Shown here: one piece after another, positions 8,959 to 45,704 of the stretch
Position numbering within the stretch: the stretch's first letter is position 1
Layout: each line of letters starts with the position of its first letter
Source of the DNA: Candidatus Rifleibacteriota bacterium
Lineage (GTDB): Bacteria; Muiribacteriota; Ozemobacteria; Ozemobacterales; Ozemobacteraceae
NCBI GenBank assembly: GCA_015232575.1
Contig: JADFZL010000018.1
Coordinates: forward strand, 66,264 to 130,263
Reading direction: 5' to 3'
DNA length: 64,000 nucleotides
Translations under genes and position numbers: made by a program
The notes under the pieces: model-generated
Seen by the model: only the letters and a program-made list of their open reading frames with translations
What the model was told of the DNA's origin: nothing
Database searches by the model: none

Positions 8959-8959
8959 T

Positions 8960-17816: not shown

Positions 17817-17845
17817 TTGAAAAGTGGAGTGGTTTTGCATATATT
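17817..17845 (+). promoter_or_regulatory. Sigma-70-like promoter of the giant repeat gene: TTGAAA-17 bp-TATATT
   Basis: ttgaaa agtggagtggttttgca tatatt. It is about 40 bp upstream of the ATG at 17887. The RBS is aaaGGGGGc. Confidence 0.45.
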
Positions 17846-17886
17846 TTACTTGTACGGTGTTAAATTTGTTCTAAAAGGGGGCAGCT

Positions 17887-20800
17887 ATGAGTACCATTAC
17901 AGGACTAACAGCGGCGCAAATTGCCGCTTTGTCGACGAGCGAAATAAAAAACTTAACTACTGATGATTTTCAGGCGATGACCACCACACAGGTCAAAGCT
18001 TTGACTACCACGCAGATAAGTGCCATTGAGTCTGAAGATTTGGTTATTCTTAACACCAAGCAGATTCAGGCTCTTCAGACATACAATATCAGAGCCATGC
18101 TGGCAAGCCAAATCAGTTCTCTTACCACGACTCAGGTTAAAGCGCTTAATGCTAATCAGGTTAAAGCTTTTACGACTGATCACGTAGCCGCCCTCTCCAC
18201 AGATCAGACACAAGCTATAGATGCCAGCGATCTTGCTGGTATGACCACCGCCCAAATTGCTGCCCTTTCTTCTGATCAGACTTCCTCCCTGACCACTCAA
18301 CAGGTCAGAACTTTGAGATCTGACCAGTTTGCAACATTTAACACCTCCGAAATTTCTACTCTATCATCAGATCAAACAGCTGCCCTGACCGCTGCTCAGG
18401 TCAAAGCTCTTTCAACTGAACAACTAAATGCCATCCAAACTACTGATTTCGCTGCTCTTGCAACTTCGGTTATCAGTGGCTTGACAACAACGCAAACTGC
18501 CAGCCTTTCTACTGACCACCTGAAAGGACTAACGACGGCACAGACAAAATCATTAACCTCAAAACAATTAGCTGTATTGGCTTACAGCAAAATTTCCTCC
18601 TTTGATACAGAAGATCTTGCAGTGTTATCGGCAACACAAATTGCCGGTTTTACCACCACTCAAATTCAGCAGGGGTTTACCTCTGACCAGATTCGTTCCC
18701 TCAGCACCACCCAGATTAAAGCATTTTCTATTACTCAGGCAAAAGCACTGTCAACTGATCAGATAGATGCCATGTCCAGCGATCAGATTGGAGCTATTGA
18801 TGCAACAGATTTAGCTGGAATGTCTTCCTCTCAGGTGGCATCTTTTTCGACAGATCAGCTATCAGGTCTTACTACTGGTCAAGTGAAATCTTTAAGATCA
18901 GATCAGCTGCGTGCTCTTAGCTCAAACATTGCCGCACTCTCTTCTGATCAATTGTCTTCGTTAACTGCCAACCAAATAAAATACTTGACAACAGATCAGC
19001 TTTTCAATGATTTGTCAAGCGATCAGATTCAAAATTTTTCGTCAACCCAAATTGCTGCATTAACTACAGCTCAGATTTCCTCTGGACTAACTACAGACAC
19101 ATTGAAAGCTTTGACCACTTCTCAAATGAAAGCACTCGGGCCAACGCAATTCCAGAGTTTGTCCGGCAGCAAAATTGCCTTGTTTTCAAGTGATCAAATT
19201 GCCGCTATAGATGCCAGTGATCTTTCATCTCTTTCTACAACTCAGATTCAATCTCTAACATCTGATCAAACAGCGGCTTTGTCAACACAACAGCTCAAGG
19301 CTTTAAAAGCCGCTCAAATTGCAGTTTTTGCAACAGAAGACATTGCCGCACTATCTACTGATCAAGTTTCCTCTCTTACAGACGCTCAAATTGCCGGACT
19401 TACAAGCGATCAGATTAATTCCATGTCGTCTTCTCAAATTCAATCTCTCACCACAAGGCAAGTTGCCTCAATTGAGCTTTTAGACCTCGCCAAGATTACA
19501 ACTGATCAGTTCCAGAATTTTACGTCGTCCCAATTGTCAGCTTTGACCTCCAATCAGATTAAATCCCTCACCACAAGCCAGGTAGCTGTTATCGCTACAG
19601 ACGACATTCAACAACTTACCAATGCTCAAATTGCCGTTTTGACCACTTCGCAGATTAATAGTGGTTTAACAACCGATCAAATTGTTGCATTGACAACTTC
19701 TCAGATAAGAGCCCTTAACTCTACTCAGGTAAAGGCTTTAACAACTGACAATATTGCAAAACTATCTACCGATCAGATTGTAGCTCTTGATGCTATTGAT
19801 ATTTCTGCGCTTTCAACTACACAGATTGCAAAATTATCCAGTGATCAAACCGCTTCTTTGACCACGGTTCAAATTAGATCTCTCAAATCTGAACAGGTAA
19901 GAAATTTCGGTACTGAAGACATTAATGCATTATCATCTGATCAGCTCAGAACGCTCTCTGCTGACCAAATAAAAGCGCTTACAACAGATCAACTGAAGTC
20001 TGGATTGTCAGCTTCAAATTTTGCAACCCTAACAACTGCTCAGATTGCTGCTTTGTCAACAGGACAAATACAATCCGGTCTAACAACTGACCAGATTACC
20101 GCCTTAACTACTTCCCAAGCGGCATCATTAACTGCTGCTCAAATCCGGAGTTTTTCAGATTCAAACATATCACTTTTTTCATCAGATCAAGCAAAATCCC
20201 TTCAGGCATCAACTATTGCAGCAATGTCAACATCACAACTTGCATCTTTTTCAACAGATGAAATCTCCGCCTTGACAGTGCAACAGTTAAAAGCACTAAA
20301 ATCTGAACAGATGCAAGCCTTTGGTACTGATGATATAAAAGCTTTTTCAACAGACCAAATCCAGGCACTAAGTGCAACCCAAATAAAAGCATTTTCCACT
20401 GATCAGTTAGTCAGTCTTAAAACTGATCAAGTTGCAGCTATGACAGGAGCTCAAATTGCTGCTATCACAACTTCAACCCTGAACTCTCTCTCAGACACCC
20501 AGATTGATGCTCTTACTACAAATCAAATGAAGTACCTCTCGATTGCACAACTTAAAGCCCTTACCACAGATCAGATAGCAGCTATCAACAGTTCTGATTT
20601 CCAAATTCTTTCTGGAACACAGCTAGCTGCATTCTCTTCATCGCAGATTAACCAAGGTTTTACCACTGAACAAATGGCTTCACTTACTACAACGCAACTA
20701 AGGGCTCTTAATTCTACTCAACTTAGAGCAATGACAACTGAAAACGTTGCCGCTCTATCATCTGATCAGGTTTCATATATTGCCGCTACTGGGATATCTG

Positions 20801-23800
20801 GTTTGACAACCGATCAAATTAGAGCTTTCTCTACTTCACAGGTTTCTGCGTTTACAACCATGCAGATAAAGATGCTGAACGCCACTCAAATTCAGTCCCT
20901 TGGAACTGATGATGTTCGTGCACTGAGTACAAACCTGGTTTCAGCACTTTCAGCTACCCAGATAAAAGCATTGGGAACATCACAGATAAAAGATGGTTTT
21001 ACCACAGATCATATTGTTTCTCTAACTACTACTCAAGTTGCAGCATTTACAACAAGTCAGGTGAATTCAGGTCTTACAACAACACAGCTTCAGAATATGA
21101 CTACCGACCAGATTAAATCTCTCGCTGCAACCCAGGTCAAAGCTATTACCACTGATGGCATAAAAGCTTTGACGACAGCCCAGGTAAAGGAAATTCAGGT
21201 TGCTGCTATTGCCAGCCTCACTACCGATCAAACGGCTATTTTGTCTACTGACCAGACTGCAAATCTGACTTTGTCACAAGTCAGGTCTCTGAGAAGCGAT
21301 CAAATTCAAGTAATGGGCACGGATGACATTCGCGCAATGTCAACTGATCAAATTTCTTCTTTATCTGCATCTCAGATAAAAGCGCTTACAACAGATCAAA
21401 CTGCATCTATGAAAACTGATCAGGTCGCAGTTCTTGGATCAACTCAATTGGCAGCATTTGAAACTACCGATCTAGCTAAATTTACAACTGATCAGATAGT
21501 AGCACTTTCGACCAGCCAAGTAAAAGCGTTTTCTGCTGCACAGATTGCAGCAATTACAACAACACAGCTTTCAGCCATGGAAACTGATGATTTAGCAGCA
21601 CTAACAACCACTCAAGTTTCAGCACTTACAACTGCTCAATTATCCAGTGGCCTTTCAACTGATCAATTGAAAGTGATGACAACAAGCCAGCTAAGAGCTC
21701 TTACAACCAGTCAGATTTCCGCCTTTTCTACCGACGACATTAAGGTTCTGTCAACCAATCAAATCAGTTCCTTCAACACTTCTGCAATTTCGTCCTTCTC
21801 TACCGACCAGATAGCTGTTCTGACAACCGATCACGTTAAAGCATTGACAACAGCCCAGTTGGCTTCTCTGAAAACAAGCCAGATTCGTGCACTTGATGCC
21901 GCTGACGTGGGCATTCTTAACTCTTCACAAATTTCAACTTTGAACGCATCTCAATTACGTGCTCTCACGACATCTCAAATTAAAAACGGTCTAACTACAG
22001 ATCAGATTGGTTCCTTGTCAACAACTCAAATTGCTGCATTAAATACCGAACAGATTAGATCAGGGTTAACTACTGATCATGTCAAACAACTTACAACAAC
22101 ACAATTATATGCCTTTTCTGCCGCCAACCTTGGGTCGCTGACCACTGATGCAATTAAAGTTCTCTCTACAAACCAAATGCTGGGGTTACACGCCAATTCA
22201 ATAAGCGGTCTCAGTACAGATCAGATAGCCATAATGAATACCGATCAAACCTCTACACTCACTTCTGTTCAGCTTCGCGCACTTACTACATCACAGATTG
22301 AGTCTTTCGGAACAGATGACATTAGGGGTTTTTCATCTAATCAATTAAATTCTCTTACCGCAACACAAATCAAAGCATTGACAACATCACAAATCAACAA
22401 CGGTTTATCTACAACTCAGTTTCAGAACCTTTCTCAGAATCAGATTGCTGCTTTTACTACATCTCAGGTGAAGGAAGGTTTGACGACTGATCAGGTTGTT
22501 GCCTTTACAACAAACCAAATATCTTCTTTGACAACTGCCCATATTTCGGCTATGGGAACTGATCAAATTAAAGCTTTTGAAACAACCGATCTTGCACTTT
22601 TCAATACCAGACAGATTGGTTCGTTAACTACAGCTCAAGTTCGCCAGGGATTAAATACAGATCAGATTTCAGTGCTTTCGACTGCCCAGATAACCGCACT
22701 TTCGACAAATGCAGTTTCAAGTTTAACAACTGATCAAATTGCAGCAATTGGCACAGGAAACCTTGCAGCACTTACAACTTCACAGATCAGAGCAATGACA
22801 ACTGACCAAGTGAAAAGTTTGAATTCAAACTCAGTTGTCGCAATGACTTCCAACCAGCTTAGAGCAATGACTACAAATCAAATACAGTCATTCACTACCG
22901 ATCAAGTTCAGCAACTTGGTACTTCTGGAATATCCTCTTTGACCTCGGTTCAGATTTCCGCTCTTACAACTGACCAGGTTAAAAATGGCTTAACTACAAA
23001 CCAGATTGAATCTATGAATACCGCTCAAATTCATTCAATGACCACTGCTCATATCAATGCAATGACTACTAACCAGGTCGCTGCAATTGAGACCGTTGAT
23101 CTTGCCGCAATGTCAACCGATCAAATACGTTCCATGACGACTGATCATATTCGCACAGGTCTTACAAACGCTCAGATGTCTTCTATTTCTACCGCTCAGT
23201 TCAGCTCTCTCTCTACCGATCAGATTCGTGCATTCTCTACAAGTCAGGTTGCTAACACTGGCACAAGAAATATTGCTGCAATGACTACAACTCAGGTGAC
23301 TGCACTTACAACCGATCAGGTTAAAAATGGACTTACATCCGCCCAGCTTAATACACTTACTTCAAATCAAATCAGGGCTCTCAGCACTGACAGTGTAGCG
23401 GCTCTCAGCGGCAGTCAACTTTCTGACCTTAATACCAGCAGTTTTGCAGCTATGAGTACTGTGCAGATTTCATCGCTGAATACAGATCAGATACAGAATC
23501 TTGGAAGTAACCACCTCGCTGCAATGACTACGACACACTTTTCGGCCCTTACAACCGATCAAATAAGGGCAATTACACCGGACAATGTTGCTGTAATAGG
23601 TACTTCAAAAATTCAAACATTGTCTACTACACAAGTTCAAGCCCTTACTACCAACCAGATACCTTCTATGACAACTGCTCAGATTGTCTCGTTGTCCACC
23701 AGTCAGCTGTCTTCAATGAAGACAGACCAGATTGCTGCAATTGAAAACGAAGATCTTATAAAATTGACCACAGCTCAAATAGCAGCTCTTACAACAGATC

Positions 23801-26800
23801 AAGTATCTAAAGGCTTGAAAAATGATCAGATAGTTGCTTTGACCACTGATCAGGCTAAAGTTTTGACAACAGCTCAGATTGCATCTCTTACAACATCTCA
23901 ATTAGCAGTGCTGGAGACCGTTGACTTAGCTTCGCTTTCTACTACTCAAATTCAGGCATTTTCTACAGAACAGGTAAGAAACGGCTTAACTGAAGATCAG
24001 ATTGCTGCCTTCTCTTCAAATCAAATAAGAGCTTTGTCCACAGTTAACCTGCAAGCTCTAAAGACTACCAGTGTTGCTGCAATACAAACTTCTGACTTTC
24101 AGGCAATGACTACCAGCCAGATAGCAGCGTTCACTACTGACCAGGTTGCAAGCGGTATCACCGTGGATCAGATAAAAGCTTTGTCAACCACTCAAATTAC
24201 TGCGCTTACATCAAATCAAATAACGGCAATGAGAAATGACCAGTTAAATGCCATTGAAACTGACGACTTCGCAAAACTCTCTACTTCTCAAGTAACATAT
24301 ATCACTACTTCTCAGATTAGAGACGCTCTTTCCTCGAGTCAATTGCAGGTTATGTCTTCGACTCAACTTAAGGCACTTACAACAGACCAGATTAAAGCAT
24401 TCTCTGCTGATCAGTTGAAACTGTTATCCACAAGTCAACTGGTTGAATTGTCAACCTCTCAGATAGAATCAGTAGAAACTGCAGATCTTGCAGCACTTAC
24501 TACTGATCAGATCAAATACATGGCTTCTAACCAACTCAGAGCACTTACTACAGATCAAGTTCGTTCGTTAACAGTTGATCAAATCAAAAATATTACAACA
24601 GACAAGCTTGCATCGCTAACGACCAATCAGATCAAAGTTCTCACTCAAGATCAAATAAAAGATGGACTCACCACCAACCAGATTGTTGCCCTCTCTACAA
24701 ACCAATTCAGAGCTTTAACAACTGATCAAGTCGGCTATCTGTCGGTTACTCAGGTAAGCAAAATCGAAAATGCCGATTTGGCTGCATTAACAACCGATCA
24801 GATAAAAGCCATGACAGAAGAACAGATTCGAGATGGAATTACAACTGATCAGGTATCTTCCATTACTACTTCGCAGATTTCTGCAATAGATACCAGTGAT
24901 CTTGCTGCAATGAAAACCACTCAGATTGTTGCATTAACTACCTCTCAGACCGCAGCTCTGTCTACTAATCAAATCAGGGCTCTTACTGCCGAGCAGATAA
25001 GCAAAATTGAAACCTCCGACCTAGCTGCAATGACCACATCTCAAATTAGTAATCTTAAAACTTCTCAAATCAATGAAGGCTTTACAACAGATCAGATCAG
25101 GTCTTTGACAACTTCTCAGTTCCAGGCACTCTCAACGGATCAGATTCCGTCGCTAACGGTTACTCAAGTCGCAGCAATTAAAACATCAGACTTGGCATCT
25201 CTTACAACAGTTCAAATTCAGGCATTGACTCCAGATCAGATTCAAGCATTAACAACCGACCAGATTACTGCCCTCACTTCCAATCAGTTGCCCAAAATCG
25301 AAACATCTGACCTGGCGTCATTAACAACCAGTCAAATTAAATCATTGACCACTACCCAGATGAGATATTTCACTACAGATCAAGTCAAAGCGTTTACACC
25401 TGACCAATTAAGAGCTATTGAAACTGATGATCTGAACGCAATGACTACCACTCAGATTGAGGCTCTTTCAACAACACAAGTCGTAGACGGTCTGTCAACA
25501 AGCCAGGTTAACACACTCTCTTCTACACTCCTGAAAGCGCTGACAACAGATCAGGTTGCTGCAATGACAAACGAACAGATTGCAAAAATTTCCACATCAA
25601 ATCTTTCTGCAATGCTGACAACACAAATTAAAGCTCTAAATGCAGATCAAACAGCCAGCCTTACCACAGATCAAGTTAAAGTGCTGACATCAAATCAGCT
25701 CGCAGCTATTGAAACAGCCGACATCTCCGGACTTTCGACATCTCATATCAAAATCCTGAGCACTTCACAGATAAAAGCCTTTACAACAGACCAAGTCAAA
25801 GCGTTTTCAGCTGATCAGTTAAGAGCTATTGAAACTGATGATTTGAACGCAATGACTACCACACAGCTTGAGGCTCTTTCAACAACGCAAGTCGTTGACG
25901 GTCTGTCAACAAGTCAAGTCAACGCACTTTCGTCTACACTCCTTAAAGCCTTGACAACAGATCAGGTTTCTGCAATGACAAACGAACAGATTGCAAAAAT
26001 TTCCACATCAAATCTTTCTGAAATGCTGACAACACAAATTAAAGCTCTAAGCGCAGATCAAACAGCCAGCCTTACGACAGATCAAGTTAAAGTGCTTACA
26101 TCAAATCAACTTGCTGCTATTGATACAGGTGATATCTCTGGACTTTCAACGTCTCATATCAGAATCCTGAGCACTTCACAGATAAAAGCCTTTACAACAG
26201 ATCAGGTCAAAGTGTTTTCTGCTGATCAATTAAGAGCTATTGAAACTGATGATTTGAACTCAATGACAACTAGCCAGATTGTAGCACTTTCAACATCACA
26301 AGTTGTTGACGGTTTCTCGACACATCAGATAAATTCATTGTCCTCAACTATCCTGAGAGCATTTACTACAGACCAGGTTGCTGCTCTGACAGATTCTCAG
26401 ATTGTAAAGGTTTCTGTAGCAAATATTTCTACAATGTTGACAACCCAAATCGAAGCTTTAACTCCAGATCAAGCTGCAAAACTTACCACTGACCAAATTC
26501 AGGCTCTGACATCTTACCAAATTGCAGCTATTGAAACTGCCGATATCGCTGCATTGACGACATCACAAATCAAATCATTGACATCATCTCAGGTAGCCTC
26601 TCTCGAAACAGAACAAATTGCTGCTTTGAGCGACTCTCAGCTTGCCGCTATTGAAACAGATGACATTTCGGCTCTTGATGTATCACAAATAGCAGCACTT
26701 ACGAGTGATCAATCACCGTATTTGACTACCTCTCAACTGGGGGTAATGACTTCCAACCAGATCAGAGCAATTGAAACAGATGATCTGGCAGTAATGACTT

Positions 26801-29190
26801 CTAATCAAATCAGGGCACTTTCTACTTCCCAGGTATCTTCTCTGACAACAAATCAAATTGCTGCTCTTACCGCTGATCAATTTGTCAGCATGAAAACAGA
26901 TCAGATACAATCACTTACTCCTAATCAGCTTGCTGCAATTCAGACGTCTGATCTTGCAGCTCTTTCTTCAAATCAGCTCAGAGCGATAACTACTACAAAT
27001 ATACGCTCATTGACAACTGACCAGATAGTTGGTCTGACAAATGATCAATTCTCAACCTTGACAACAGATCAGATTGCTGCGCTCACGACAACGCAGGTTG
27101 CAGCTATTCAATCTACTGATTTGCAAGCCCTCACAACAAATCAGATTAAGGCATTTACTTCTAATCAGATCAGAGCATTGTCAACTGACCAGGTAACCAA
27201 GCTGTCTGAATCCCAAGTCGCAGCAATGGAAACTGACGATGTTGCAGCAATGTTGACGTCACAAATTCAAGTTCTCAACACTACTCAGTTCACATCGCTG
27301 ACAACTGATCAAATAGCTGCCATGACAACCAGTCAAATTGAAGCAATTGAGACTGATGATCTGGCATCACTTGACGTAGACAGAATTCAGGCTCTAACTA
27401 CCGCTCAGGTGAGGGCATTGTCTACAGAACAAATGAGTTCACTTACAGTAACGCAGATTCCTGCAATTGCAGCAGATGACTTGGCAGCGTTAACAACAAC
27501 TCAGATTAATACAATAAAAACAGCCAACTTCAATAATATTACCAACACTCAAATTCAAGCACTGAATACAAATCAATTAAAATATCTGGCAACAGACAAA
27601 CTTGTTACATTATCAGCCAGTCAGATTGGTTCTATTAAAACTGATTCCATTTCAGCTCTCACTAGCGATCAAATTAAATCGCTCACTGCGACTCAGTTCG
27701 CCGGAATAACAACCAGTCAGATTGCACAAATGACAACCGCTCAAGTTGCTGCTATTGAAACTGATGATTTGATAGTTCTTGGAAGTGAACACATCAAAGC
27801 AATGAATTCTTCGCAGATAAAAGCTTTGACAAGCAATCAAATAGCTGCTTTGACAACAACTCAGATAACTGGTATTGAAACTGATGATTTGATTGTATTG
27901 ACTTCCACACAGATTGGTGCCTTTACCACAGATCAAATTGAAGCACTTAGTACAAAGCAAGTTGAAGCGTTGACCAGTGCACAGATAGCTGCAATAGAAG
28001 TTGCTGATCTGCAGACATTCTCTTCATCTCAATTAAGAGCACTTACAAGTGATCAAATCCAATGGTTGACTACCTCTCAGGTAACCGAACTTACAACTGA
28101 TAATCAAATTCCGTTCTTGAAAACAGATCAGATAGCGGCACTTGAAACACGTGATCTTGTTAAACTAACAGCGTCACAAATTGCATCCTTTACCACTGAT
28201 CAAATTCGCGCATTGTCCACCAGTCAAATCAGCGTTCTCACAACAGACCAGATCAGGGCTATTGAGACATCTGATCTTGAAGCATTGACTACAGATCAAA
28301 TTCAAGCTTTGACCTCAACTCAATTCCAGGCACTGACAACAGATTCTCAAATACCAGCACTAACAACTGATCAGATAAGGGCTATCGAGATATCAGATCT
28401 AGTTAAGCTTACGACCAGTCAGGTCAGAGCTATGACTACCAGCCAGATCAGTAAGTTAACAACCAGTCAGTTGACCTCACTTACCACAACTCAGACCGCT
28501 GCAATAGGAACCGATGACATTGCAGCAATGACCACCGAACAAATCAACAAGTTGACAACCAATCAGATCAGATCGCTTTCAAATGCACAAATTGCAGCTC
28601 TGACTTCAGATACCCAGCTAAACGCACTTACTACCGATCAGATAATAGCTCTCACTACTTCACAGATTCAAGCATTCACTACTGATAAACAAATTCCTGC
28701 ACTTTCAACGACTCTGCTTGCAGCTATTGAAACAGCAGATCTCGTTAAAATGACCACTAATCAGATTGCTGCTCTCACAACAGATCAGATTTCACATCTT
28801 ACTCCAACACAAGTCAGCAAACTTACGACTGATCAAATAGTGGCTATTGAAACTGATGACCTGGTGCAAATGACGACCAATCAAATTCAGGCGCTTGGAA
28901 CAACTCAGGTCCTGGCATTAAATACTAATCAAATTTCCTCGTTGACTACCGATCAGGTTGTTGGCCTTACTACAAATCAATTCAGAAATATGAGCACCGA
29001 TCAACTAGTCGCCTTAACGACGGATAGTCAGGTACCTGCAATTGCAACTGAAGATCTTGTAGCTCTTACAACAACACAATTGCAATCGTTAACCACCGAC
29101 CAGATTTATGCTCTAACTGATGATCAGGTAGCAGCAATAAATACCGATCAATTAACCGGACCTCAACAGGCGGCATTATTACTGCCTTAA
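17887..29190 (+). CDS. Giant (3767 aa) octapeptide-repeat protein of unknown family. About 470 tandem 8-residue repeats with consensus [ST]-T-[DST]-Q-[IV]-x-[AS]-[LMF].
   Basis: One uninterrupted 11,304-nt ORF. The translation is almost entirely ...TTDQIKAL TTSQIAAL STDQVKAF ETDDLAAM... The 24-nt periodicity is visible in the DNA. Occasional 9-mers contain SGL, NGL or DGF. There is no signal peptide, LPXTG, RTX or other sorting motif. The gene has a strong RBS, its own promoter and a terminator. Confidence 0.85.
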   Translation: MSTITGLTAAQIAALSTSEIKNLTTDDFQAMTTTQVKALTTTQISAIESEDLVILNTKQIQALQTYNIRAMLASQISSLTTTQVKALNANQVKAFTTDHVAALSTDQTQAIDASDLAGMTTAQIAALSSDQTSSLTTQQVRTLRSDQFATFNTSEISTLSSDQTAALTAAQVKALSTEQLNAIQTTDFAALATSVISGLTTTQTASLSTDHLKGLTTAQTKSLTSKQLAVLAYSKISSFDTEDLAVLSATQIAGFTTTQIQQGFTSDQIRSLSTTQIKAFSITQAKALSTDQIDAMSSDQIGAIDATDLAGMSSSQVASFSTDQLSGLTTGQVKSLRSDQLRALSSNIAALSSDQLSSLTANQIKYLTTDQLFNDLSSDQIQNFSSTQIAALTTAQISSGLTTDTLKALTTSQMKALGPTQFQSLSGSKIALFSSDQIAAIDASDLSSLSTTQIQSLTSDQTAALSTQQLKALKAAQIAVFATEDIAALSTDQVSSLTDAQIAGLTSDQINSMSSSQIQSLTTRQVASIELLDLAKITTDQFQNFTSSQLSALTSNQIKSLTTSQVAVIATDDIQQLTNAQIAVLTTSQINSGLTTDQIVALTTSQIRALNSTQVKALTTDNIAKLSTDQIVALDAIDISALSTTQIAKLSSDQTASLTTVQIRSLKSEQVRNFGTEDINALSSDQLRTLSADQIKALTTDQLKSGLSASNFATLTTAQIAALSTGQIQSGLTTDQITALTTSQAASLTAAQIRSFSDSNISLFSSDQAKSLQASTIAAMSTSQLASFSTDEISALTVQQLKALKSEQMQAFGTDDIKAFSTDQIQALSATQIKAFSTDQLVSLKTDQVAAMTGAQIAAITTSTLNSLSDTQIDALTTNQMKYLSIAQLKALTTDQIAAINSSDFQILSGTQLAAFSSSQINQGFTTEQMASLTTTQLRALNSTQLRAMTTENVAALSSDQVSYIAATGISGLTTDQIRAFSTSQVSAFTTMQIKMLNATQIQSLGTDDVRALSTNLVSALSATQIKALGTSQIKDGFTTDHIVSLTTTQVAAFTTSQVNSGLTTTQLQNMTTDQIKSLAATQVKAITTDGIKALTTAQVKEIQVAAIASLTTDQTAILSTDQTANLTLSQVRSLRSDQIQVMGTDDIRAMSTDQISSLSASQIKALTTDQTASMKTDQVAVLGSTQLAAFETTDLAKFTTDQIVALSTSQVKAFSAAQIAAITTTQLSAMETDDLAALTTTQVSALTTAQLSSGLSTDQLKVMTTSQLRALTTSQISAFSTDDIKVLSTNQISSFNTSAISSFSTDQIAVLTTDHVKALTTAQLASLKTSQIRALDAADVGILNSSQISTLNASQLRALTTSQIKNGLTTDQIGSLSTTQIAALNTEQIRSGLTTDHVKQLTTTQLYAFSAANLGSLTTDAIKVLSTNQMLGLHANSISGLSTDQIAIMNTDQTSTLTSVQLRALTTSQIESFGTDDIRGFSSNQLNSLTATQIKALTTSQINNGLSTTQFQNLSQNQIAAFTTSQVKEGLTTDQVVAFTTNQISSLTTAHISAMGTDQIKAFETTDLALFNTRQIGSLTTAQVRQGLNTDQISVLSTAQITALSTNAVSSLTTDQIAAIGTGNLAALTTSQIRAMTTDQVKSLNSNSVVAMTSNQLRAMTTNQIQSFTTDQVQQLGTSGISSLTSVQISALTTDQVKNGLTTNQIESMNTAQIHSMTTAHINAMTTNQVAAIETVDLAAMSTDQIRSMTTDHIRTGLTNAQMSSISTAQFSSLSTDQIRAFSTSQVANTGTRNIAAMTTTQVTALTTDQVKNGLTSAQLNTLTSNQIRALSTDSVAALSGSQLSDLNTSSFAAMSTVQISSLNTDQIQNLGSNHLAAMTTTHFSALTTDQIRAITPDNVAVIGTSKIQTLSTTQVQALTTNQIPSMTTAQIVSLSTSQLSSMKTDQIAAIENEDLIKLTTAQIAALTTDQVSKGLKNDQIVALTTDQAKVLTTAQIASLTTSQLAVLETVDLASLSTTQIQAFSTEQVRNGLTEDQIAAFSSNQIRALSTVNLQALKTTSVAAIQTSDFQAMTTSQIAAFTTDQVASGITVDQIKALSTTQITALTSNQITAMRNDQLNAIETDDFAKLSTSQVTYITTSQIRDALSSSQLQVMSSTQLKALTTDQIKAFSADQLKLLSTSQLVELSTSQIESVETADLAALTTDQIKYMASNQLRALTTDQVRSLTVDQIKNITTDKLASLTTNQIKVLTQDQIKDGLTTNQIVALSTNQFRALTTDQVGYLSVTQVSKIENADLAALTTDQIKAMTEEQIRDGITTDQVSSITTSQISAIDTSDLAAMKTTQIVALTTSQTAALSTNQIRALTAEQISKIETSDLAAMTTSQISNLKTSQINEGFTTDQIRSLTTSQFQALSTDQIPSLTVTQVAAIKTSDLASLTTVQIQALTPDQIQALTTDQITALTSNQLPKIETSDLASLTTSQIKSLTTTQMRYFTTDQVKAFTPDQLRAIETDDLNAMTTTQIEALSTTQVVDGLSTSQVNTLSSTLLKALTTDQVAAMTNEQIAKISTSNLSAMLTTQIKALNADQTASLTTDQVKVLTSNQLAAIETADISGLSTSHIKILSTSQIKAFTTDQVKAFSADQLRAIETDDLNAMTTTQLEALSTTQVVDGLSTSQVNALSSTLLKALTTDQVSAMTNEQIAKISTSNLSEMLTTQIKALSADQTASLTTDQVKVLTSNQLAAIDTGDISGLSTSHIRILSTSQIKAFTTDQVKVFSADQLRAIETDDLNSMTTSQIVALSTSQVVDGFSTHQINSLSSTILRAFTTDQVAALTDSQIVKVSVANISTMLTTQIEALTPDQAAKLTTDQIQALTSYQIAAIETADIAALTTSQIKSLTSSQVASLETEQIAALSDSQLAAIETDDISALDVSQIAALTSDQSPYLTTSQLGVMTSNQIRAIETDDLAVMTSNQIRALSTSQVSSLTTNQIAALTADQFVSMKTDQIQSLTPNQLAAIQTSDLAALSSNQLRAITTTNIRSLTTDQIVGLTNDQFSTLTTDQIAALTTTQVAAIQSTDLQALTTNQIKAFTSNQIRALSTDQVTKLSESQVAAMETDDVAAMLTSQIQVLNTTQFTSLTTDQIAAMTTSQIEAIETDDLASLDVDRIQALTTAQVRALSTEQMSSLTVTQIPAIAADDLAALTTTQINTIKTANFNNITNTQIQALNTNQLKYLATDKLVTLSASQIGSIKTDSISALTSDQIKSLTATQFAGITTSQIAQMTTAQVAAIETDDLIVLGSEHIKAMNSSQIKALTSNQIAALTTTQITGIETDDLIVLTSTQIGAFTTDQIEALSTKQVEALTSAQIAAIEVADLQTFSSSQLRALTSDQIQWLTTSQVTELTTDNQIPFLKTDQIAALETRDLVKLTASQIASFTTDQIRALSTSQISVLTTDQIRAIETSDLEALTTDQIQALTSTQFQALTTDSQIPALTTDQIRAIEISDLVKLTTSQVRAMTTSQISKLTTSQLTSLTTTQTAAIGTDDIAAMTTEQINKLTTNQIRSLSNAQIAALTSDTQLNALTTDQIIALTTSQIQAFTTDKQIPALSTTLLAAIETADLVKMTTNQIAALTTDQISHLTPTQVSKLTTDQIVAIETDDLVQMTTNQIQALGTTQVLALNTNQISSLTTDQVVGLTTNQFRNMSTDQLVALTTDSQVPAIATEDLVALTTTQLQSLTTDQIYALTDDQVAAINTDQLTGPQQAALLLP
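25381..26613 (+). repeat. Three tandem 411-bp (137-aa) super-repeats inside the giant gene. Copies 1 and 2 are about 93% identical; copy 3 is more diverged.
   Basis: Copies begin at 25381, 25792 and 26203. Each encodes ...TTDQVKAF SADQLRAI ETDDLNAM TTTQ[IL]EAL STTQVVDGL STSQVN[TA]L SSTLLKAL TTDQV[AS]AM TNEQIAKI STSNLS[AE]M LTTQIKAL ... Confidence 0.8.
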
Positions 29191-29203
29191 AAAATTCTAA
29201 AAA

Positions 29204-29241
29204 CAAAGCTTCAACTTAAAAGTTGAAGCTTTGTTTTTTAT
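29204..29241 (+). terminator. Rho-independent terminator of the giant gene
   Basis: caaagcttcaact-taaa-agttgaagctttg followed by tttttta. A 13-bp perfect stem plus a U-tract, 14 bp after the stop. Confidence 0.75.
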
Positions 29242-29356: not shown

Positions 29357-31180
29357 ATGGAGAATATAATGCAATTTCAATCAGAGTATTTAGATGCAAT
29401 AAAAAGAATCTGGCAAAAAAGGTTAGATATTTATGAACTGCTTAATTTAGCTGAAAAAATAGAAAACAACAACAATTATGAGCTTGCTGCGGCATTATAT
29501 AAGCTGTGGCTTCTAAAAAATGATACAAACCAAAATCACTTCGTTTATTATAATCTGAGTGTCGTTTCTTTGAAAATGGGAGAATTAAACGATGCCTTGT
29601 CTGCTGCCAAAAAGGCGATTGAGCTTTATCCCAGTTTTATTCTTCCACATTTAACGCTTCTTCAAATTTACAACTCTCTGAGCATGAAAAATGAAAAGAT
29701 TGCAGAATGCCTCTGGATTACAGAGAATGTTTCGCCTGTTCAGAAAGAATTTCAAGACTTTCTTGTCTGCGCATTAAATACAGTTGCAGAAAAAGCAGAA
29801 GAGAACAAAGAATATGCAAAAGCATACGAATATTGTAGTAGAAGCCTTTCCATCAAAGAAGATCAGCCAGATGTACTGCATCATTGGATTTTTTTGAGAG
29901 AAAAACTTTGTATCTGGCCAGTATTATCATCTTTCGGTTCAATTTCCTCTGAGAAACAAAAAAGATTTTCTTCTGCAATGGCTATTTTAAGCATTACGGA
30001 CGACCCTGAATTACAATTCGAAACTGCTGTAAATTTTGCAAAAAAAATCTGCCTTCCAGAAATACTTTTATCTCAAAAAAGAAAATACAATCATAATAAA
30101 ATCAGAATCGGCTACTGTTCATCAAATTATTGTATTCATCCGGTTGGAATGCTTACCGTAGAGTTGTTTGAACAACACAACCGTGACTTATTCGAAATAT
30201 ATGGTTTCTGTTGGACAAACGAAGGGGATTCCGAACTTCGTACAAGAATAGCAAAATCTTTTGAACATTTTTACAAGATCGGACAACTCAGCGATGAAGA
30301 ATCAGCAGGATTAATCAAAGAAAGAGAAATTGATATTGTAATAGATCTTCATGGGCAAACCCTCGGAGCAAGACCGGGAATATTCGCTTTTCGTCCAGCA
30401 CCTGTTCAGATAACATACCTAGGCTTACCAGGAACAACCGGTTATTCGTTTATTGATTACGTAATTGCCGATCAATACATCATTCCAAATGAATTTCAAC
30501 ACTATTTCTCTGAAAAACCAATTTATATGCCAGATTGCTTTCAGGTAAGCGATCGAAAACGTGTGCCCTACCCCACCCCATCAAAATATAGTCAAGGTCT
30601 TCCAGAAACTGGATTTATTTTCTGCTCGTTCAACAGCAGTTTCAAGATAACCCCTGAAATATTCACCATCTGGATGAATATATTAAAAAGGGTTCCTGAC
30701 AGTGTTCTCTGGCTGATTTCTGACAATACGGCAACAGAAGAAAACTTAAAAAAAGAGGCACAAAAGCAAAAGGTATCAGTTGAGCGGCTCATTTTTTCTA
30801 ACCTTGTATCACCGCCAGAATATCTTGCACGCATGAAACTTGCAGACCTTTTTCTGGACACCTACCCATTTAACGCAGGAACGACCGCAAACGACTCTCT
30901 TTGGATGGGTCTTCCGGTTCTTACACTAAGCGGACGTTCATTTGCATCACGAATGGCAGGATCATTACTCAAGACGCTTAACCTGCATGAGCTGATAACG
31001 AAAAATTACCAGGACTACGAAGAGAAAGCTATCACACTTGCACATGATCCGGAAAAATGCTTCAAGATACGAAATCATCTTAAAACAGAGTGCAAAAACG
31101 GGGTTCTGTTCGACACTCCAAGATTCGTAAAAAACCTTGAAAACATTTTTCTCAAACTAATAACAGAATTGCCATGTTAA
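29357..31180 (+). CDS. TPR-repeat protein fused to a GT41-family (O-GlcNAc transferase / FlmG-like) glycosyltransferase domain
   Basis: N-terminal TPR-like helices. C-terminal segments read RIGYCSSNYCIHPVGMLTVELFE, FRPAPVQITYLGLPGTTGYSFIDYVIADQYIIPNEFQHYFSEKPIYMPDCFQ and GFIFCSFNSSFKITPEIFTIWMNILKRVPDSVLWL. These are typical of the OGT/SPINDLY catalytic domain. Confidence 0.7.
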   Translation: MENIMQFQSEYLDAIKRIWQKRLDIYELLNLAEKIENNNNYELAAALYKLWLLKNDTNQNHFVYYNLSVVSLKMGELNDALSAAKKAIELYPSFILPHLTLLQIYNSLSMKNEKIAECLWITENVSPVQKEFQDFLVCALNTVAEKAEENKEYAKAYEYCSRSLSIKEDQPDVLHHWIFLREKLCIWPVLSSFGSISSEKQKRFSSAMAILSITDDPELQFETAVNFAKKICLPEILLSQKRKYNHNKIRIGYCSSNYCIHPVGMLTVELFEQHNRDLFEIYGFCWTNEGDSELRTRIAKSFEHFYKIGQLSDEESAGLIKEREIDIVIDLHGQTLGARPGIFAFRPAPVQITYLGLPGTTGYSFIDYVIADQYIIPNEFQHYFSEKPIYMPDCFQVSDRKRVPYPTPSKYSQGLPETGFIFCSFNSSFKITPEIFTIWMNILKRVPDSVLWLISDNTATEENLKKEAQKQKVSVERLIFSNLVSPPEYLARMKLADLFLDTYPFNAGTTANDSLWMGLPVLTLSGRSFASRMAGSLLKTLNLHELITKNYQDYEEKAITLAHDPEKCFKIRNHLKTECKNGVLFDTPRFVKNLENIFLKLITELPC

Positions 31181-32612: not shown

Positions 32613-33452
32613 GTGAAAACTGCAAAAGATGATCCAATAAAGCTTGAGGAAAGCGTCATTCCAATGTTACAGAGTGAGCTCTCTCACACTGGTCTTAAAG
32701 ACTATTATCATGTTTTTGAAGAAAACATAGCTTCACTTATTAATTGTAAGGGGTTGGAAATTGCTCAACAAAAAATTTTTGATTTCCTTTCACAGGTAAC
32801 TCCTTCGAAGTTACCTGTGTTTATATGTCAACATGTATTGGGTGAGAGATTGAATTTTAAAGATGGAATTGTTTTTTCTCCTCATGCATCACAGATTAAT
32901 GGATTTATTTTAATTCCACATTTCAATTCAATAGCTGGTGATTTTATAGATTTTATTCCTGTGAAAAAGCGTGCCTGGATTGGAACTTTTATTGGCGACA
33001 CCAATACAAATCCTCTTCGCAAGAAAATCTATGATACACTTGTTGGAACTAAAGATTGGTTAATTAATGACACAGGCGTGTGGCACTTTTCGAAATCTCC
33101 TGATCAGAGGGAAAAAGACAAAGAAAGTTACATTAATAGTCTACAAAATTCAATCTTTTGTCTTTGTCCTCCCGGAACCGGCGCTGGCACTCTTCGACTT
33201 TGGGAATCAATTTCATGCGGTACAATACCTGTTATTTTTGGAAACACTCTTCTTCCAAAAGAATTAGAACCTCTTGCAGTAAGGATTGATACAATAGATT
33301 CAAAGGATGTTTTTCTTCAAAATTTACACGAGCGTGGAACTAATGTTAATTTCAGAGCAGCTCAACTATACCTGAAATATTGGAGCAACTTTGCAAATAA
33401 GAAAATCTATAAAAATATTGTACAATTTTTAGATGAAAAATTAAGAAAGTGA
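32613..33452 (+). CDS. Exostosin-like (GT47-like) glycosyltransferase domain protein
   Basis: SIFCLCPPGTGAGTLRLWESISCGTIPVIF matches the exostosin C-terminal motif (F.LCP.G...S.R..EA...GCIPVI). Confidence 0.5.
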   Translation: MKTAKDDPIKLEESVIPMLQSELSHTGLKDYYHVFEENIASLINCKGLEIAQQKIFDFLSQVTPSKLPVFICQHVLGERLNFKDGIVFSPHASQINGFILIPHFNSIAGDFIDFIPVKKRAWIGTFIGDTNTNPLRKKIYDTLVGTKDWLINDTGVWHFSKSPDQREKDKESYINSLQNSIFCLCPPGTGAGTLRLWESISCGTIPVIFGNTLLPKELEPLAVRIDTIDSKDVFLQNLHERGTNVNFRAAQLYLKYWSNFANKKIYKNIVQFLDEKLRK

Positions 33453-34165
33453 CTAATTCGTTGAAAATATATACGTTTTCTACTCAATCGTACAAGTCTC
33501 TATTAGATTTAAGCCTGAGTTCGTTGATTCAAATCGGAGAACATGAGAATGTTGTTGTTGCTTCGTTTGAGCAAAAAGCGAATTTTGTGGAGCTTTTTTC
33601 GCCAGAATGGCGTTTAACAATGATTGAAAAATTGAGATATGTATTATTTTCAATAGATGCCGTACAACCGTTTGTTCATGCTGATTGTGATATAGTTTAC
33701 TATCGACCGTTTACTCAACGTTTACTTACCTTACTAACAACAAGTGGCCTCGATTTGATTTTTCAGGCTGATAGTTCGCAGAATGTTTGTTTGGGTTTTT
33801 TTGTTTGTAAACCTACGAAAAGAACTTATGACTTGTTTGCAGCTTCCATTAAACTTCTTGAAGAAGGTAATGCTGAAAATTTTCACCAGGCTTTCAATAA
33901 ATTGCTGAATTCTCAGCTTTTTTCTGATATAAAATATGGACTGCTAGGCTCAGATGCATACAGCATTTGGAGGCAAACCGATGGCAAGCTCTGGGATTCC
34001 TCTCAACCAGTTAATAAAATTTTCGATGCTGTTTTTATGCATCATGCCAACTTCACCGTTGGAATTGATAACAAACTTAACTTAATAACAAAGGTAAGGG
34101 AAAATATGGTTTTTAAAAGTCCGATTATGTTTCAAACACCAGTGCATTACGAATTTTCACTATAA
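33449..34165 (+). CDS. Hypothetical protein (possible nucleotide-diphospho-sugar transferase fold)
   Basis: 238 aa. It contains a DCD (DxD-like) segment, FVHADCDIVYYRPF. Translationally coupled to its neighbours. Confidence 0.3.
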   Translation: MTNSLKIYTFSTQSYKSLLDLSLSSLIQIGEHENVVVASFEQKANFVELFSPEWRLTMIEKLRYVLFSIDAVQPFVHADCDIVYYRPFTQRLLTLLTTSGLDLIFQADSSQNVCLGFFVCKPTKRTYDLFAASIKLLEEGNAENFHQAFNKLLNSQLFSDIKYGLLGSDAYSIWRQTDGKLWDSSQPVNKIFDAVFMHHANFTVGIDNKLNLITKVRENMVFKSPIMFQTPVHYEFSL

Positions 34166-34167
34166 TT

Positions 34168-35478: not shown

Positions 35479-35495
35479 TCAGGAATAAAATTATT

Positions 35496-36215
35496 ATGAA
35501 CCTAATCCGCATAGGATCTCAATATGGTGGTTGGATTATCGATGATGCCGAATATCTGCATGGCTGCACTATGATTAGTGCTGGTTTAGGCGAGGATGCA
35601 AGTTTTGATGTTGAGTTTGCAACCAGGTTTAAAGCAACTGTGTTATTGGTTGATCCCACTCCAAGAGCCATATTGCACTACCTGGAAATTCAGAAAGAGT
35701 TAGGGAAATATGGAAATGTTCCCTATTCATCAACTGGCAAACAGCCAATTGCTGCTTATGACTTGAGAGCTATAAAAAGTTCTCAACTTCAATTGCTTCC
35801 ATTTGCGCTTTGGAATAAAAGAGGCATTACTTTTTTTCGCCCTCCTGACAATCCTGAACATGTCTCTCACCAAATATTTGAGTTCCAAAGTGAAAAACGT
35901 ACTGAGACAACAGGTTCATTTCCAGTAGCTTCTTCAACTATCAGCGATATAGTTTCGGTTTTTTGTAAGTTTCCCCCAACTGTTGTAAAACTCGATATTG
36001 AAGGAGCCGCAAGCTCAGTTATTGAAGATATGCTTCTAAACGGTATTTTTCCGAATCAACTCCTTGTGGAATTTGATGAACTTAAAATACCTAACCCACA
36101 ATTACATAATAAAGCCTTGCAGATACATGCACTATTGGAAAAATATGGTTATTGTTTATCAGCCCAGGAACAATTCAATTGTTCGTATATTAAAAAAGCT
36201 ATTTCGCTTGGTTAG
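35496..36215 (+). CDS. FkbM-family-like methyltransferase
   Basis: GGWIIDDAEYLHGCTMISAGLGEDASFDVEFATRFKATVLLVDPTP resembles the FkbM domain core. 239 aa. Confidence 0.4.
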   Translation: MNLIRIGSQYGGWIIDDAEYLHGCTMISAGLGEDASFDVEFATRFKATVLLVDPTPRAILHYLEIQKELGKYGNVPYSSTGKQPIAAYDLRAIKSSQLQLLPFALWNKRGITFFRPPDNPEHVSHQIFEFQSEKRTETTGSFPVASSTISDIVSVFCKFPPTVVKLDIEGAASSVIEDMLLNGIFPNQLLVEFDELKIPNPQLHNKALQIHALLEKYGYCLSAQEQFNCSYIKKAISLG

Positions 36216-37216: not shown

Positions 37217-37227
37217 TAAGAAAATAA

Positions 37228-45670: not shown

Positions 45671-45704
45671 GAGATCTCGCTTGCTTTGGTGAAGTTATCG
45701 AAGT

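What the first reader, a model, noticed from the sequence alone, without database searches (positions are those of the whole stretch)
17887..29190. 11.3-kb gene encoding about 470 tandem octapeptide repeats (TTDQIxAL), placed between flaG and OGT-like glycosyltransferases
One uninterrupted ORF encodes 3767 aa. After the first 6 residues it is almost entirely 8-residue units: [ST]-T-[DST]-Q-[IV]-x-[AS]-[LMF]. Sporadic 9-mers (xSGL, NGL, DGF) occur, and a recurring [ED]-T-x-D-L-A-A-[LM] variant punctuates the array. Thr/Ser/Gln dominate the composition. The hydrophobic i/i+3 spacing within an 8-residue period fits neither heptad nor hendecad coiled coils, nor the known pentapeptide-repeat solenoids. 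There is no Sec signal, LPXTG, RTX, PEP-CTERM or T9SS motif. The gene has its own sigma-70-like promoter, a strong RBS and a clean terminator. The repeats are diverged at the DNA level outside one recent triplication, which argues for selection on an expressed product. It sits immediately after flagellin-flagellin-flaG, where fliD/fliS are normally found. It is followed by TPR-GT41 (O-GlcNAc-transferase / FlmG-like) enzymes and a large sugar-biosynthesis island. The protein could be a flagellar-T3SS-exported or surface fibre or sheath component. It could also be a massive O-glycosylation substrate, with more than 900 Ser/Thr. I do not recognise this repeat family.
Basis: partly seen in the sequence, partly recalled or inferred. 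Interest (0 to 1): 0.92.

Follow-up and report, generated by a model that had tools for sequence, protein, structure and literature searches.

The report
Giant ALTTAQ-repeat rod with dedicated glycosyltransferase
This 11.3-kb gene encodes a 398-kDa protein built only from 467 eight-residue mini-helices (the uncharacterised Pfam "ALTTAQ repeat"), and across several bacterial phyla it travels with its own OGT-type sugar transferase, so it is most likely a heavily sugar-coated exported rod that landed beside the flagellin genes here, not a flagellar part.

Summary
ORF 17887-29190 (+) encodes 3767 aa: 432 octads, 33 nonads and 2 heptads, with consensus [TS]-T-[DST]-Q-[ILV]-x-[AS]-[LIMF].

The repeat is not unrecognised. 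It is Pfam PF20080 (ALTTAQ repeat), a curated family with no known function. About 1,700 representative clusters carry it.

AlphaFold2 (pLDDT 92) puts one 5-6-residue helix in each octad. The only close PDB relative by sequence is the designed "alpha-helical screw" HeliScrew4 (9ZEM).

The main new result is comparative. The downstream TPR-GT41 enzyme is OGT-like (closest to XcOGT), not HMW1C-like. Its homologues lie next to an ALTTAQ protein in 5 of 9 loci reached through the repeat protein, and in 5 of 5 loci reached through the enzyme. None of those loci shows flagellar genes in the flanks held.

A sister Riflebacteria MAG has flagellins-flaG-fliD-fliS uninterrupted, and its ALTTAQ+GT41 module sits on another contig. 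So the flagellar position here is an insertion.

Relatives lie next to type I secretion genes or carry RTX, calcium-binding or carbohydrate-binding domains.

Best reading: a substrate O-glycosylated in the cytoplasm and then exported as a rod. The export route in this genome is unproven.

It is a new member of a known but uncharacterised family. Interest is moderate to high.

The parts
17887..29190 (+). ALTTAQ-repeat giant protein gene. 3767 aa, 467 octad-type units, with no other domain.
   Evidence: ORF and translation. PF20080 hits with E 8e-79 to 6e-103 per 400 aa. Unit parse. AF2 pLDDT 92.3 with one helix per unit.
17875..17881 (+). Shine-Dalgarno-like AAGGGGG, 5 nt before the ATG.
   Evidence: Read directly from the sequence.
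17817..17845 (+). Candidate sigma-70-like promoter (TTGAAA-17-TATATT). Weak evidence.
   Evidence: Consensus scan gives 10 of 12 matches, but such sites are no more frequent than in shuffled sequence. No sigma-28 or sigma-54 motif lies in 17639-17886.
25375..26547 (+). Recent internal triplication: 411 nt (137 aa) x 2.9 copies, 83% matches.
   Evidence: Tandem Repeats Finder.
29199..29238 (.). 18-bp-stem hairpin flanked by A-run and T-run. Likely a bidirectional intrinsic terminator after the giant gene.
29357..31180 (+). TPR + GT41 glycosyltransferase (OGT/SPINDLY type). Inferred dedicated partner enzyme of the giant protein.
   Evidence: Pfam Glyco_transf_41, E 8.6e-87. Closest solved structures are XcOGT (E 1.7e-78) and human OGT (about 1e-75), against 1e-6 for HMW1C/NGT. 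Homologues are adjacent to ALTTAQ proteins in L001, L002, L003, L007, L008 and L010-L014.
32613..38538 (+). Candidate glycan-elaboration genes: GT47-like, nucleotide-diphospho-sugar transferase, AsnB-like amidotransferase, DUF5672 and GT1. It is unresolved whether they serve the giant protein or the flagellins.
   Evidence: Pfam. GT2 and methyltransferase genes follow the GT41 in L010, L011 and L012.
39790..47330 (-). FkbM-type methyltransferase, another methyltransferase, an unknown 599-aa ORF and two B12-binding radical SAM enzymes. The same enzyme types accompany ALTTAQ+GT41 in Magnetovirga frankeli.
   Evidence: Pfam. L012 gene list. Only weak tblastn links.
60174..63278 (-). Second, longer TPR-GT41 paralogue (1034 aa) at the far end of the island. 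Its target is unknown; it could be the flagellins or the giant protein.
   Evidence: Pfam. It scores 345 bits against GT41-1, while GT41-1 scores 469-481 bits against the ALTTAQ-adjacent GT41 of L001.

Best explanation
What it is. The gene encodes a domain-less member of the ALTTAQ-repeat family (Pfam PF20080).

Fold.
- Shown by prediction: each octad forms one short capped helix. Position 1 (T/S) is the N-cap and Q4 completes a capping box. I5 and L8 (i, i+3) make the core.
- Inferred: the 467 units wind into a continuous, acidic, Cys-free 'alpha-helical screw' rod. Its length should be of the order of 0.1-0.2 micrometre.

Glycosylation (inferred from conserved gene pairing).
- The adjacent cytoplasmic TPR-GT41 enzyme is OGT-like.
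- It probably O-glycosylates the Ser/Thr that recur once or twice per octad. Position 2 is the most likely site.
- Other transferases, methyltransferases and radical SAM enzymes of the island may elaborate the glycan.

Export (inferred from relatives only).
- The glycoprotein is then probably exported without a Sec signal, most plausibly by a type I secretion system encoded elsewhere.
- Outside the cell it would serve as a glycosylated surface or matrix fibre, or as a stalk.

Location. The ALTTAQ+GT41 module is mobile between genomes. In this Riflebacteria MAG it sits between flaG and the rest of the flagellar glycosylation island. It may share nucleotide-sugar supply there, but it is not a conserved flagellar component.
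For: Family: PF20080 hits at 260-337 bits per 400 aa, against a 26.4-bit cutoff.

Fold:
- AF2 with an alignment gives pLDDT 92.3 and pTM 0.81. With a single sequence it gives pLDDT 80.6. Both show one 5-6-residue helix per octad.
- Positions 2-6 are helical and positions 8 and 1 form the linker.
- phmmer hits the designed HeliScrew4 (9ZEM), E 1.4e-15, aligned unit for unit. The preprint 10.64898/2025.12.04.691947 describes that crystal structure.

Partner enzyme:
- GT41 homologues are adjacent to ALTTAQ proteins in 5 of 9 loci found through the repeat protein.
- They are adjacent in 5 of 5 loci found through the GT41 alone: Riflebacteria, Methylomonas, Magnetovirga, Cupriavidus and an ENA contig.
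- GT41-1 is OGT-type, matching XcOGT at E 1.7e-78.
- The XcOGT motifs GAHPTG and FNNSYKLNP are kept as CIHPVG and FNSSFKITP.
- N-x-S/T sequons are depleted: 24 against 40 +/- 5 expected. This fits O-linkage, not N-linkage.

Export:
- L007 has giant -> GT41 -> C39-ABC -> HlyD on one strand.
- L004 has a giant ending in pure repeats next to ABC and HlyD genes.
- Relatives carry RTX, EF-hand-like calcium-binding C-terminal domains, CBM60, CBM4_9 or Tectonin domains.
- The window protein has no Cys, a pI of 4.4, and no signal peptide or TM segment.

Not flagellar.
Against: - No glycan, transcript or protein has been observed. Glycosylation is inferred from synteny only.
- A strong terminator separates the giant gene from GT41-1 here, so the two are not co-transcribed.
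- No T1SS gene lies in the 64-kb window. The protein has no RTX or calcium-binding C-terminal domain. Most GT41-linked loci (L010-L014) show no T1SS within 10 kb. Export is therefore the weakest step, and a cytoplasmic role is not excluded.
- Folded short helices are poor OGT substrates, so modification would have to precede folding or hit the linkers.
- In this genome the two GT41 enzymes could instead, or also, serve the 751-aa flagellins.
Confidence: 0.6

Rival explanations
1. Flagellar component. The protein is exported by the flagellar type III system. It would form a sheath, fibrils or a filament-associated fibre, taking the genomic place of fliD/fliS. The GT41 enzymes would be flagellar glycosyltransferases.
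For: - Position directly after flagellin-flagellin-flaG, inside an island that also holds Maf.
- No Sec signal.
- Precedent for a >350-kDa glycoprotein flagellar sheath in the magnetotactic coccus MO-1 (PMC7175107).
- One ALTTAQ protein (P0243) carries FlgE_D2 and FlgD_ig domains.
Against: - No flagellar gene is detected in the flanks held for 14 other ALTTAQ or GT41 loci.
- The sister Riflebacteria MAG has four flagellins, then flaG, fliD, DUF8042 and fliS, with no giant gene. Its two ALTTAQ giants and GT41 are on another contig.
- L016 also runs flaG-fliD.
- There is no sigma-28 box upstream of the giant gene, while both flagellin genes have GACGATAA.
- No Flagellin_N/C or rod/hook terminal domains are present.
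- Relatives point to T1SS export.
Confidence: 0.1
2. Unglycosylated structural rod or spacer. The ALTTAQ array is simply a stiff stalk, secreted or cytoplasmic. The neighbouring GT41 acts on other targets, such as the flagellins. The Thr ladder itself would be the functional surface, for example for binding ice, mineral or polysaccharide.
For: - In other family members the array is fused to CBM, Tectonin or RTX modules, like a stalk.
- Many family members (PF20080 + PF26745) are listed without any known GT41 neighbour.
- Four of the 9 loci found through the repeat protein lack a GT41 within 10 kb.
- A terminator lies between the giant gene and the GT41 here.
Against: - All 5 GT41 homologues examined independently of the repeat protein have an ALTTAQ gene immediately adjacent, across distant taxa and without flagellins nearby.
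- This GT41 subfamily (about 604 aa) shows no other recurring neighbour across the examined loci.
Confidence: 0.2
3. Assembly artefact, or a decaying or non-expressed repeat ORF in a metagenome-assembled genome.
For: The source is a MAG. Repeat genes are prone to mis-assembly. One 83%-identical triplication is present.
Against: - The longest exact repeat is 51 nt, and units are only 47% identical at the DNA level.
- A stop-free frame runs for 3767 codons.
- Third codon positions are close to random, while the amino-acid periodicity is conserved.
- Comparable giants (1756-5176 aa) occur in isolate genomes, including the complete genome of Magnetovirga frankeli and Pelomonas isolates.
Confidence: 0.04

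Closest known systems
Pfam PF20080 'ALTTAQ repeat' proteins (uncharacterised; automatic names include 'heme utilization protein' and 'trimeric autotransporter adhesin')
   Same: The same repeat, scoring far above the Pfam threshold. Relatives are also giant, acidic, Cys-free arrays. The same 5-unit super-period fits the 38-aa model.
   Different: Most database members end in an EF-hand-like calcium-binding C-terminal domain (PF26745) or in RTX or CBM modules. This protein is repeats from Met to stop. It belongs to the subset paired with a GT41 of about 604 aa.
Designed 8-mer 'alpha-helical screw' HeliScrew4 (PDB 9ZEM; bioRxiv 10.64898/2025.12.04.691947)
   Same: The octad (L)TPEQIAA against (L)TTDQIxA: N-cap Thr, Gln at N3, and Ile/Leu core at i/i+3. 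phmmer E 1.4e-15. One short helix per unit.
Dedicated cytoplasmic glycosylation of a giant adhesin before export: HMW1/HMW1C (GT41 N-glycosyltransferase) and Gram-positive serine-rich repeat proteins with GtfA/B
   Same: A very large repeat substrate encoded next to its own soluble glycosyltransferase. HMW1C is also GT41. No lipid-linked oligosaccharide is implied.
   Different: The enzyme here is OGT/SPINDLY-type with TPRs, not HMW1C-type. N-x-S/T sequons are depleted. There is no two-partner secretion, no accessory Sec and no LPXTG. This is an analogy of logic, not membership.
Type I-secreted giant repeat adhesins (RTX adhesins such as LapA, SiiE, MpIBP)
   Same: Giant, acidic, Cys-free, no N-terminal signal. 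Relatives lie next to C39-ABC and HlyD genes or carry RTX repeats.
   Different: This protein has no RTX nonapeptides, no recognisable C-terminal signal, no retention module and no T1SS genes within 64 kb. Its repeat is a helical octad, not a beta-rich Ig-like domain of about 100 aa.
MO-1 magnetotactic coccus flagellar sheath glycoprotein (>350 kDa, Ca-dependent; PMC7175107)
   Same: A very large glycoprotein associated with flagella. The size class matches (398 kDa).
   Different: The window protein lacks a calcium-binding domain. The flagellar linkage is not conserved in relatives.

Membership tests
Pfam PF20080 ALTTAQ repeat family | HMM match above the gathering score (26.4 bits) | tested here: met
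   259.5, 280.4 and 336.7 bits for three 400-aa segments, with 12-14 stretches each.
Pfam PF20080 ALTTAQ repeat family | Homologues retrieved by sequence search carry the same repeat | tested here: met
   286 hits at E<1e-10, nearly all annotated PF20080. 1736 representatives at E<1e-3 among 1.84 billion.
8-mer alpha-helical screw fold (HeliScrew type) | One short helix per 8-residue unit, with an N-cap S/T and an i/i+3 apolar core | tested here: met
   AF2 DSSP: positions 2-6(7) helical and 8/1 linker in 44 of 44 units. Logo T1...Q4, I5, L8. Prediction only.
8-mer alpha-helical screw fold (HeliScrew type) | Superhelical winding of 2.5-4 units per turn around a central axis | not testable with these tools
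Type I secretion substrates (RTX-type) | RTX GGxGxD nonapeptides or a calcium-binding C-terminal domain | tested here: not met
   No GGxGxD and no HemolysinCabind or EF-hand hit. Present in relatives L001, L005, L006, L009 and P0248.
Type I secretion substrates (RTX-type) | Cognate ABC transporter and membrane fusion protein encoded nearby | tested here: not met
   None in the 64-kb window. Present beside the homologues in L007 and L004. The rest of the genome was not available.
Type I secretion substrates (RTX-type) | No N-terminal signal, acidic, Cys-poor, giant repeats | tested here: met
   pI 4.4, 0 Cys, maximum KD 1.09.
Flagellar axial or fT3SS-exported proteins | Conserved flagellar terminal domains (Flagellin_N/C, Flg_bb_rod, FliD) | tested here: not met
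   Only PF20080 is found.
Flagellar axial or fT3SS-exported proteins | Conserved placement in flagellar loci of related genomes, and a flagellar promoter | tested here: not met
   No flagellar genes detected in L001-L014. flaG-fliD is contiguous in L015 and L016. No sigma-28 or sigma-54 motif lies upstream.
HMW1/HMW1C-type N-glycosylated adhesin systems | HMW1C-type GT41 (no TPR) and enrichment of N-x-S/T sequons | tested here: not met
   GT41-1 matches XcOGT and hOGT at about 1e-78 to 1e-75, against 1e-6 for HMW1C/NGT. Sequons: 24 against 40 +/- 5 expected.
OGT (GT41) enzyme-substrate pair | Conserved adjacency of enzyme and putative substrate across taxa | tested here: met
   10 of 14 loci, including 5 of 5 chosen through the enzyme.
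OGT (GT41) enzyme-substrate pair | Demonstrated O-glycan on the substrate | not testable with these tools
   Requires mass spectrometry or an in vitro assay.

The most novel reading that the evidence does not exclude
In this Riflebacteria lineage the ALTTAQ+OGT module may have been recruited into the flagellar locus to make a proteinaceous, glycosylated flagellar sheath or inter-flagellar fibril. That would be a molecular counterpart of the >350-kDa glycoprotein sheath of the magnetotactic coccus MO-1. The octad helical screw would then be the building block of a new class of flagellar accessory structure.
Probability: 0.08. Interest if true: 0.85.

Novelty: new member of a known kind. Interest (0 to 1): 0.58.

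Why it matters
1. Natural counterpart of a 'dark matter' fold. A late-2025 preprint presented the 8-residue alpha-helical screw as conformational dark matter, with a single natural PDB example. ALTTAQ proteins show that bacteria build rods of hundreds of such units, and that a family of about 1,700 sequence clusters uses it.

2. A candidate native substrate for bacterial OGTs. What bacterial OGT/SPINDLY-type GT41 enzymes glycosylate has been unclear; the EMBO J 2008 paper on XcOGT left its native substrate unidentified. The tight, cross-phylum pairing of a GT41 subfamily of about 604 aa with ALTTAQ proteins offers a concrete substrate. It can be tested in cultivable hosts.

3. A Gram-negative analogue of known systems. 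If confirmed, this would parallel serine-rich repeat glycoproteins and HMW1/HMW1C, but with a different fold, linkage and probably export route.

4. An annotation warning. The flagellar neighbourhood that made the locus look exceptional is incidental.

Tried and rejected
- NCBIfam gave no meaningful hit for the giant protein.
- Literature searches for 'ALTTAQ' and 'PF20080' found nothing relevant.
- Sigma-28 and sigma-54 motif scans upstream of the giant gene were negative.
- Exact-sequence look-ups of the window's FlaG, GT41-1 and GT41-2 found no indexed contig. I therefore could not extend the window to look for fliD/fliS or a T1SS.
- The source genome was not among the genome-contig hits.
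- I tested whether the N-terminal 96 aa form a specially conserved module. The N-terminus is the best-matching offset in 3 of 5 orthologues, but only marginally (0.45-0.52 identity against 0.42-0.44 for interior offsets). I do not claim an N-terminal signal.
- At first I read GT41-1 as orthologous to the L001 and L007 enzymes (31-41% identity). I then found many closer homologues (50-54%). Their contexts could have been flagellar, but all five examined were ALTTAQ-adjacent, which strengthened the pairing.
- The original MO-1 sheath paper (PMID 21091512) is not held.
Full report
**1. Observation**

The ORF at 17887-29190 (+) is real and uninterrupted, encoding 3767 aa. Residue identity at lag 8 and its multiples is 0.26-0.30, against about 0.05 elsewhere.

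A dynamic-programming parse gives 467 units: 432 octads, 33 nonads and 2 heptads. The logo is:
- position 1: T/S (72%)
- position 2: T/S (81%)
- position 3: D/S/T
- position 4: Q (74%)
- position 5: I/L/V (89%)
- position 6: variable
- position 7: A/S (69%)
- position 8: L/I/M/F (93%)

There are 56 acidic variant units of the type E-T-x-D-L-A-A-L, most often 5 units apart.

The protein is 398 kDa with pI 4.4. It has 1105 Ser+Thr, no Cys and one Trp. It has no LPXTG, no RTX motif, no hydrophobic segment and no signal-peptide-like N-terminus.

At the DNA level the 24-nt units are only 47% identical, and 32% at third codon positions. The longest exact repeat is 51 nt. Tandem Repeats Finder sees only a 411-nt x2.9 array at 25375-26547. 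Assembly collapse is therefore unlikely, and the periodicity is maintained at the protein level.

The terminator hairpin (29199-29238) and the RBS are present. The proposed sigma-70 promoter is no better than chance.

**2. Surroundings and source**

Upstream genes:
- MSHA-type pilus genes (402-5459).
- An AsnB-like gene, a metallo-beta-lactamase-fold gene, a methyltransferase and a Maf gene on the minus strand (5488-11894).
- Two 751-aa flagellin genes and flaG.

Downstream genes:
- A TPR-GT41 (29357-31180).
- About 30 kb of transferases, methyltransferases, B12- and SPASM-type radical SAM enzymes, aminotransferase, formyltransferase, epimerases and a split transketolase.
- A second, 1034-aa TPR-GT41 (60174-63278, minus strand).

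No type I secretion gene is present in the window.

Proteins 100% identical to GT41-1 and FlaG come from a 148,166-bp contig of a 'MAG: Candidatus Riflebacteria bacterium'.

**3. What the repeat is**

Pfam recognises it as PF20080, 'ALTTAQ repeat' (E 8e-79 to 6e-103 per 400 aa). I know of no experimental characterisation of this family, and full-text searches found none. An exhaustive phmmer search of 1.84 billion representatives finds 1736 proteins at E<1e-3 and 712 at E<1e-10, with lengths up to 5499 aa.

*Predicted fold.* AlphaFold2 on the C-terminal 399 aa, with an alignment, gives pLDDT 92.3 and pTM 0.81. On the N-terminal 300 aa as a single sequence it gives pLDDT 80.6. Both show one 5-6-residue helix per unit.

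Mapping DSSP onto the units shows positions 2-6(7) helical and positions 8 and 1 as linker, in 44 of 44 units. This implies:
- T1 is the N-cap and Q4 is the N3 residue of a capping box. This follows from established helix-capping rules.
- I5 and L8 form the core.

*Closest solved structure.* The only strong PDB sequence match is 9ZEM 'HeliScrew4' (E 1.4e-15). It is a de novo (L)TPEQIAA 8-mer 'alpha-helical screw'. Its 2.2-A crystal structure is described in bioRxiv 10.64898/2025.12.04.691947. That preprint calls the fold conformational dark matter with one natural PDB example, 7QLR.

*Rod length.* The preprint gives 2.5-4 units per turn. With an assumed pitch of about 1 nm, 467 units would make a rod of roughly 0.1-0.2 micrometre.

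**4. The conserved partner**

*Loci found through the repeat protein.* A scan of one genome per species found nine loci (L001-L009; Alpha- and Betaproteobacteria; about 38% identity). In five of them a homologue of GT41-1 lies directly beside the ALTTAQ giant.

*Loci found through the enzyme.* I then searched with GT41-1 alone and looked at the contexts of five of its closest homologues (50-54% identity). All five have an ALTTAQ protein immediately adjacent:
- L010: another Riflebacteria MAG, with giants of 3715 and 2019 aa.
- L011: Methylomonas, 1756 aa.
- L012: the complete genome of Magnetovirga frankeli, 2818 aa.
- L013: Cupriavidus numazuensis.
- L014: an ENA contig, with ALTTAQ genes on both sides.

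These proteins also start with repeats at the initiator Met (for example MATTITGLSTAQVAAL...). They have no Cys and end in repeats.

*Type of enzyme.*
- GT41-1 is OGT-type. It matches XcOGT at E 1.7e-78 and human OGT at about 1e-75, but HMW1C/NGT only at 1e-6.
- The XcOGT segments GAHPTG and FNNSYKLNP are conserved. From memory, these hold the active-site His and the UDP-binding Lys.
- N-x-S/T sequons are depleted: 24 against 40 +/- 5 expected.

I infer that this GT41 subfamily of about 604 aa is the dedicated O-glycosyltransferase of ALTTAQ proteins. No glycan has been observed.

*Accessory genes.* GT2, FkbM-methyltransferase and radical SAM genes follow the pair in L010-L012, as in the window. 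Part of the window's island may therefore serve the giant protein and not the flagellins.

**5. Flagellar or not**

- tblastn with the window's flagellin, FlaG and Maf proteins finds no hit in the flanks held for the 14 related loci.
- The sister Riflebacteria MAG (GCA_015233565.1) has four flagellins, then flaG, fliD, DUF8042 and fliS, with nothing inserted (L015). Its ALTTAQ+GT41 module is on a different contig, next to uvrD (L010).
- A further relative also runs flaG-fliD (L016).
- Both flagellin genes here carry a sigma-28-like GACGATAA box. The 248-nt region upstream of the giant gene has neither a sigma-28 nor a sigma-54 motif.

The placement after flaG is therefore specific to this genome: an insertion of the module into, or beside, the flagellar glycosylation island.

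**6. Export and role**

Evidence is indirect and comes from relatives:
- L007 has giant -> GT41 -> C39-domain ABC transporter -> HlyD-type fusion protein on one strand.
- L004 has a giant that ends in pure repeats (...SALFL*), as the window protein does, beside ABC and HlyD genes.
- The giants of L001, L005 and L006, and most database homologues, end in an EF-hand-like calcium-binding domain. L001 also has the GT41.
- L009 and P0248 carry RTX repeats. P0241 and P0248 carry CBM or Tectonin modules.

Together with the acidic, Cys-free, signal-less nature of the protein, this points to type I secretion and an extracellular rod or stalk function. For the window protein itself neither a T1SS nor a recognisable C-terminal signal was found. 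Export is the least secure step.

**7. Verdict**

The description is confirmed and the family is identified. It is known to Pfam but functionally blank. The fold is explained by prediction plus a designed homologue.

The flagellar one is largely undermined.

The gene is a new member of a known, uncharacterised kind. The ALTTAQ-OGT pairing and the natural use of the octad helical screw are the points worth following up.

Noticed in passing
window 39790-40548, 43968-47330, 52603-53541, 56199-57266; L012 14390-21827: FkbM methyltransferase, B12-binding radical SAM and radical SAM-SPASM genes accompany the ALTTAQ+GT41 pair both here and in Magnetovirga frankeli. They could tailor the glycan or the protein itself. 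Sequence similarity between the two sets is only weak.
   Followed up: partly
window 60174-63278 (-): A second TPR-GT41 paralogue of 1034 aa carries about 400 C-terminal residues with no Pfam match. Its target (flagellins or the giant protein) is unknown.
   Followed up: partly
window 12067-12094 and 14738-14764: Both 751-aa flagellin genes have a sigma-28-like -10 element, GACGATAA, at similar distances from their starts. The flaG and giant upstream regions do not.
   Followed up: partly
window 41892-43691 (-), 38674-39699 (-), 31346-32455 (-), 35496-36215 (+): Four sizeable ORFs inside the glycosylation island (599, 341, 369 and 239 aa) have no Pfam match at E<1e-5.
   Followed up: no
window 402-5459 (+): An MshE-type ATPase plus PilM, PilN and PilO genes (an MSHA/type IV pilus assembly cluster) lie just upstream of the flagellin glycosylation genes.
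   Followed up: no
L017 375-7853 (protein P0243): A 2492-aa ALTTAQ protein from a Logan contig combines the repeat array with FlgE_D2 and FlgD_ig domains. This is the only other hint of a link to flagellar-type modules. These beta domains also occur in non-flagellar surface proteins.
   Followed up: partly
window 17887-18130 (residues 1-80); L010, L011, L012 N-termini: The first 80-100 residues (DF.AM, IE.EDLV.L and QTYNI units) align colinearly with the N-termini of orthologues from Methylomonas, Magnetovirga and Riflebacteria, slightly better than any interior offset. Single-sequence AF2 confidence dips at residues 50-80.
   Followed up: partly
window 17953-18300 (-) and 27652-27960 (-): Antisense ORFs of 115 and 102 aa lie inside the giant gene. 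They are most likely by-products of the repeat composition.
   Followed up: no
PDB 9ZEM compared with window 28693-29016: A protein designed de novo from random 8-mer repeats converged on almost the same octad as the natural ALTTAQ family. The preprint describing it cites only 7QLR as a natural example.
   Followed up: yes
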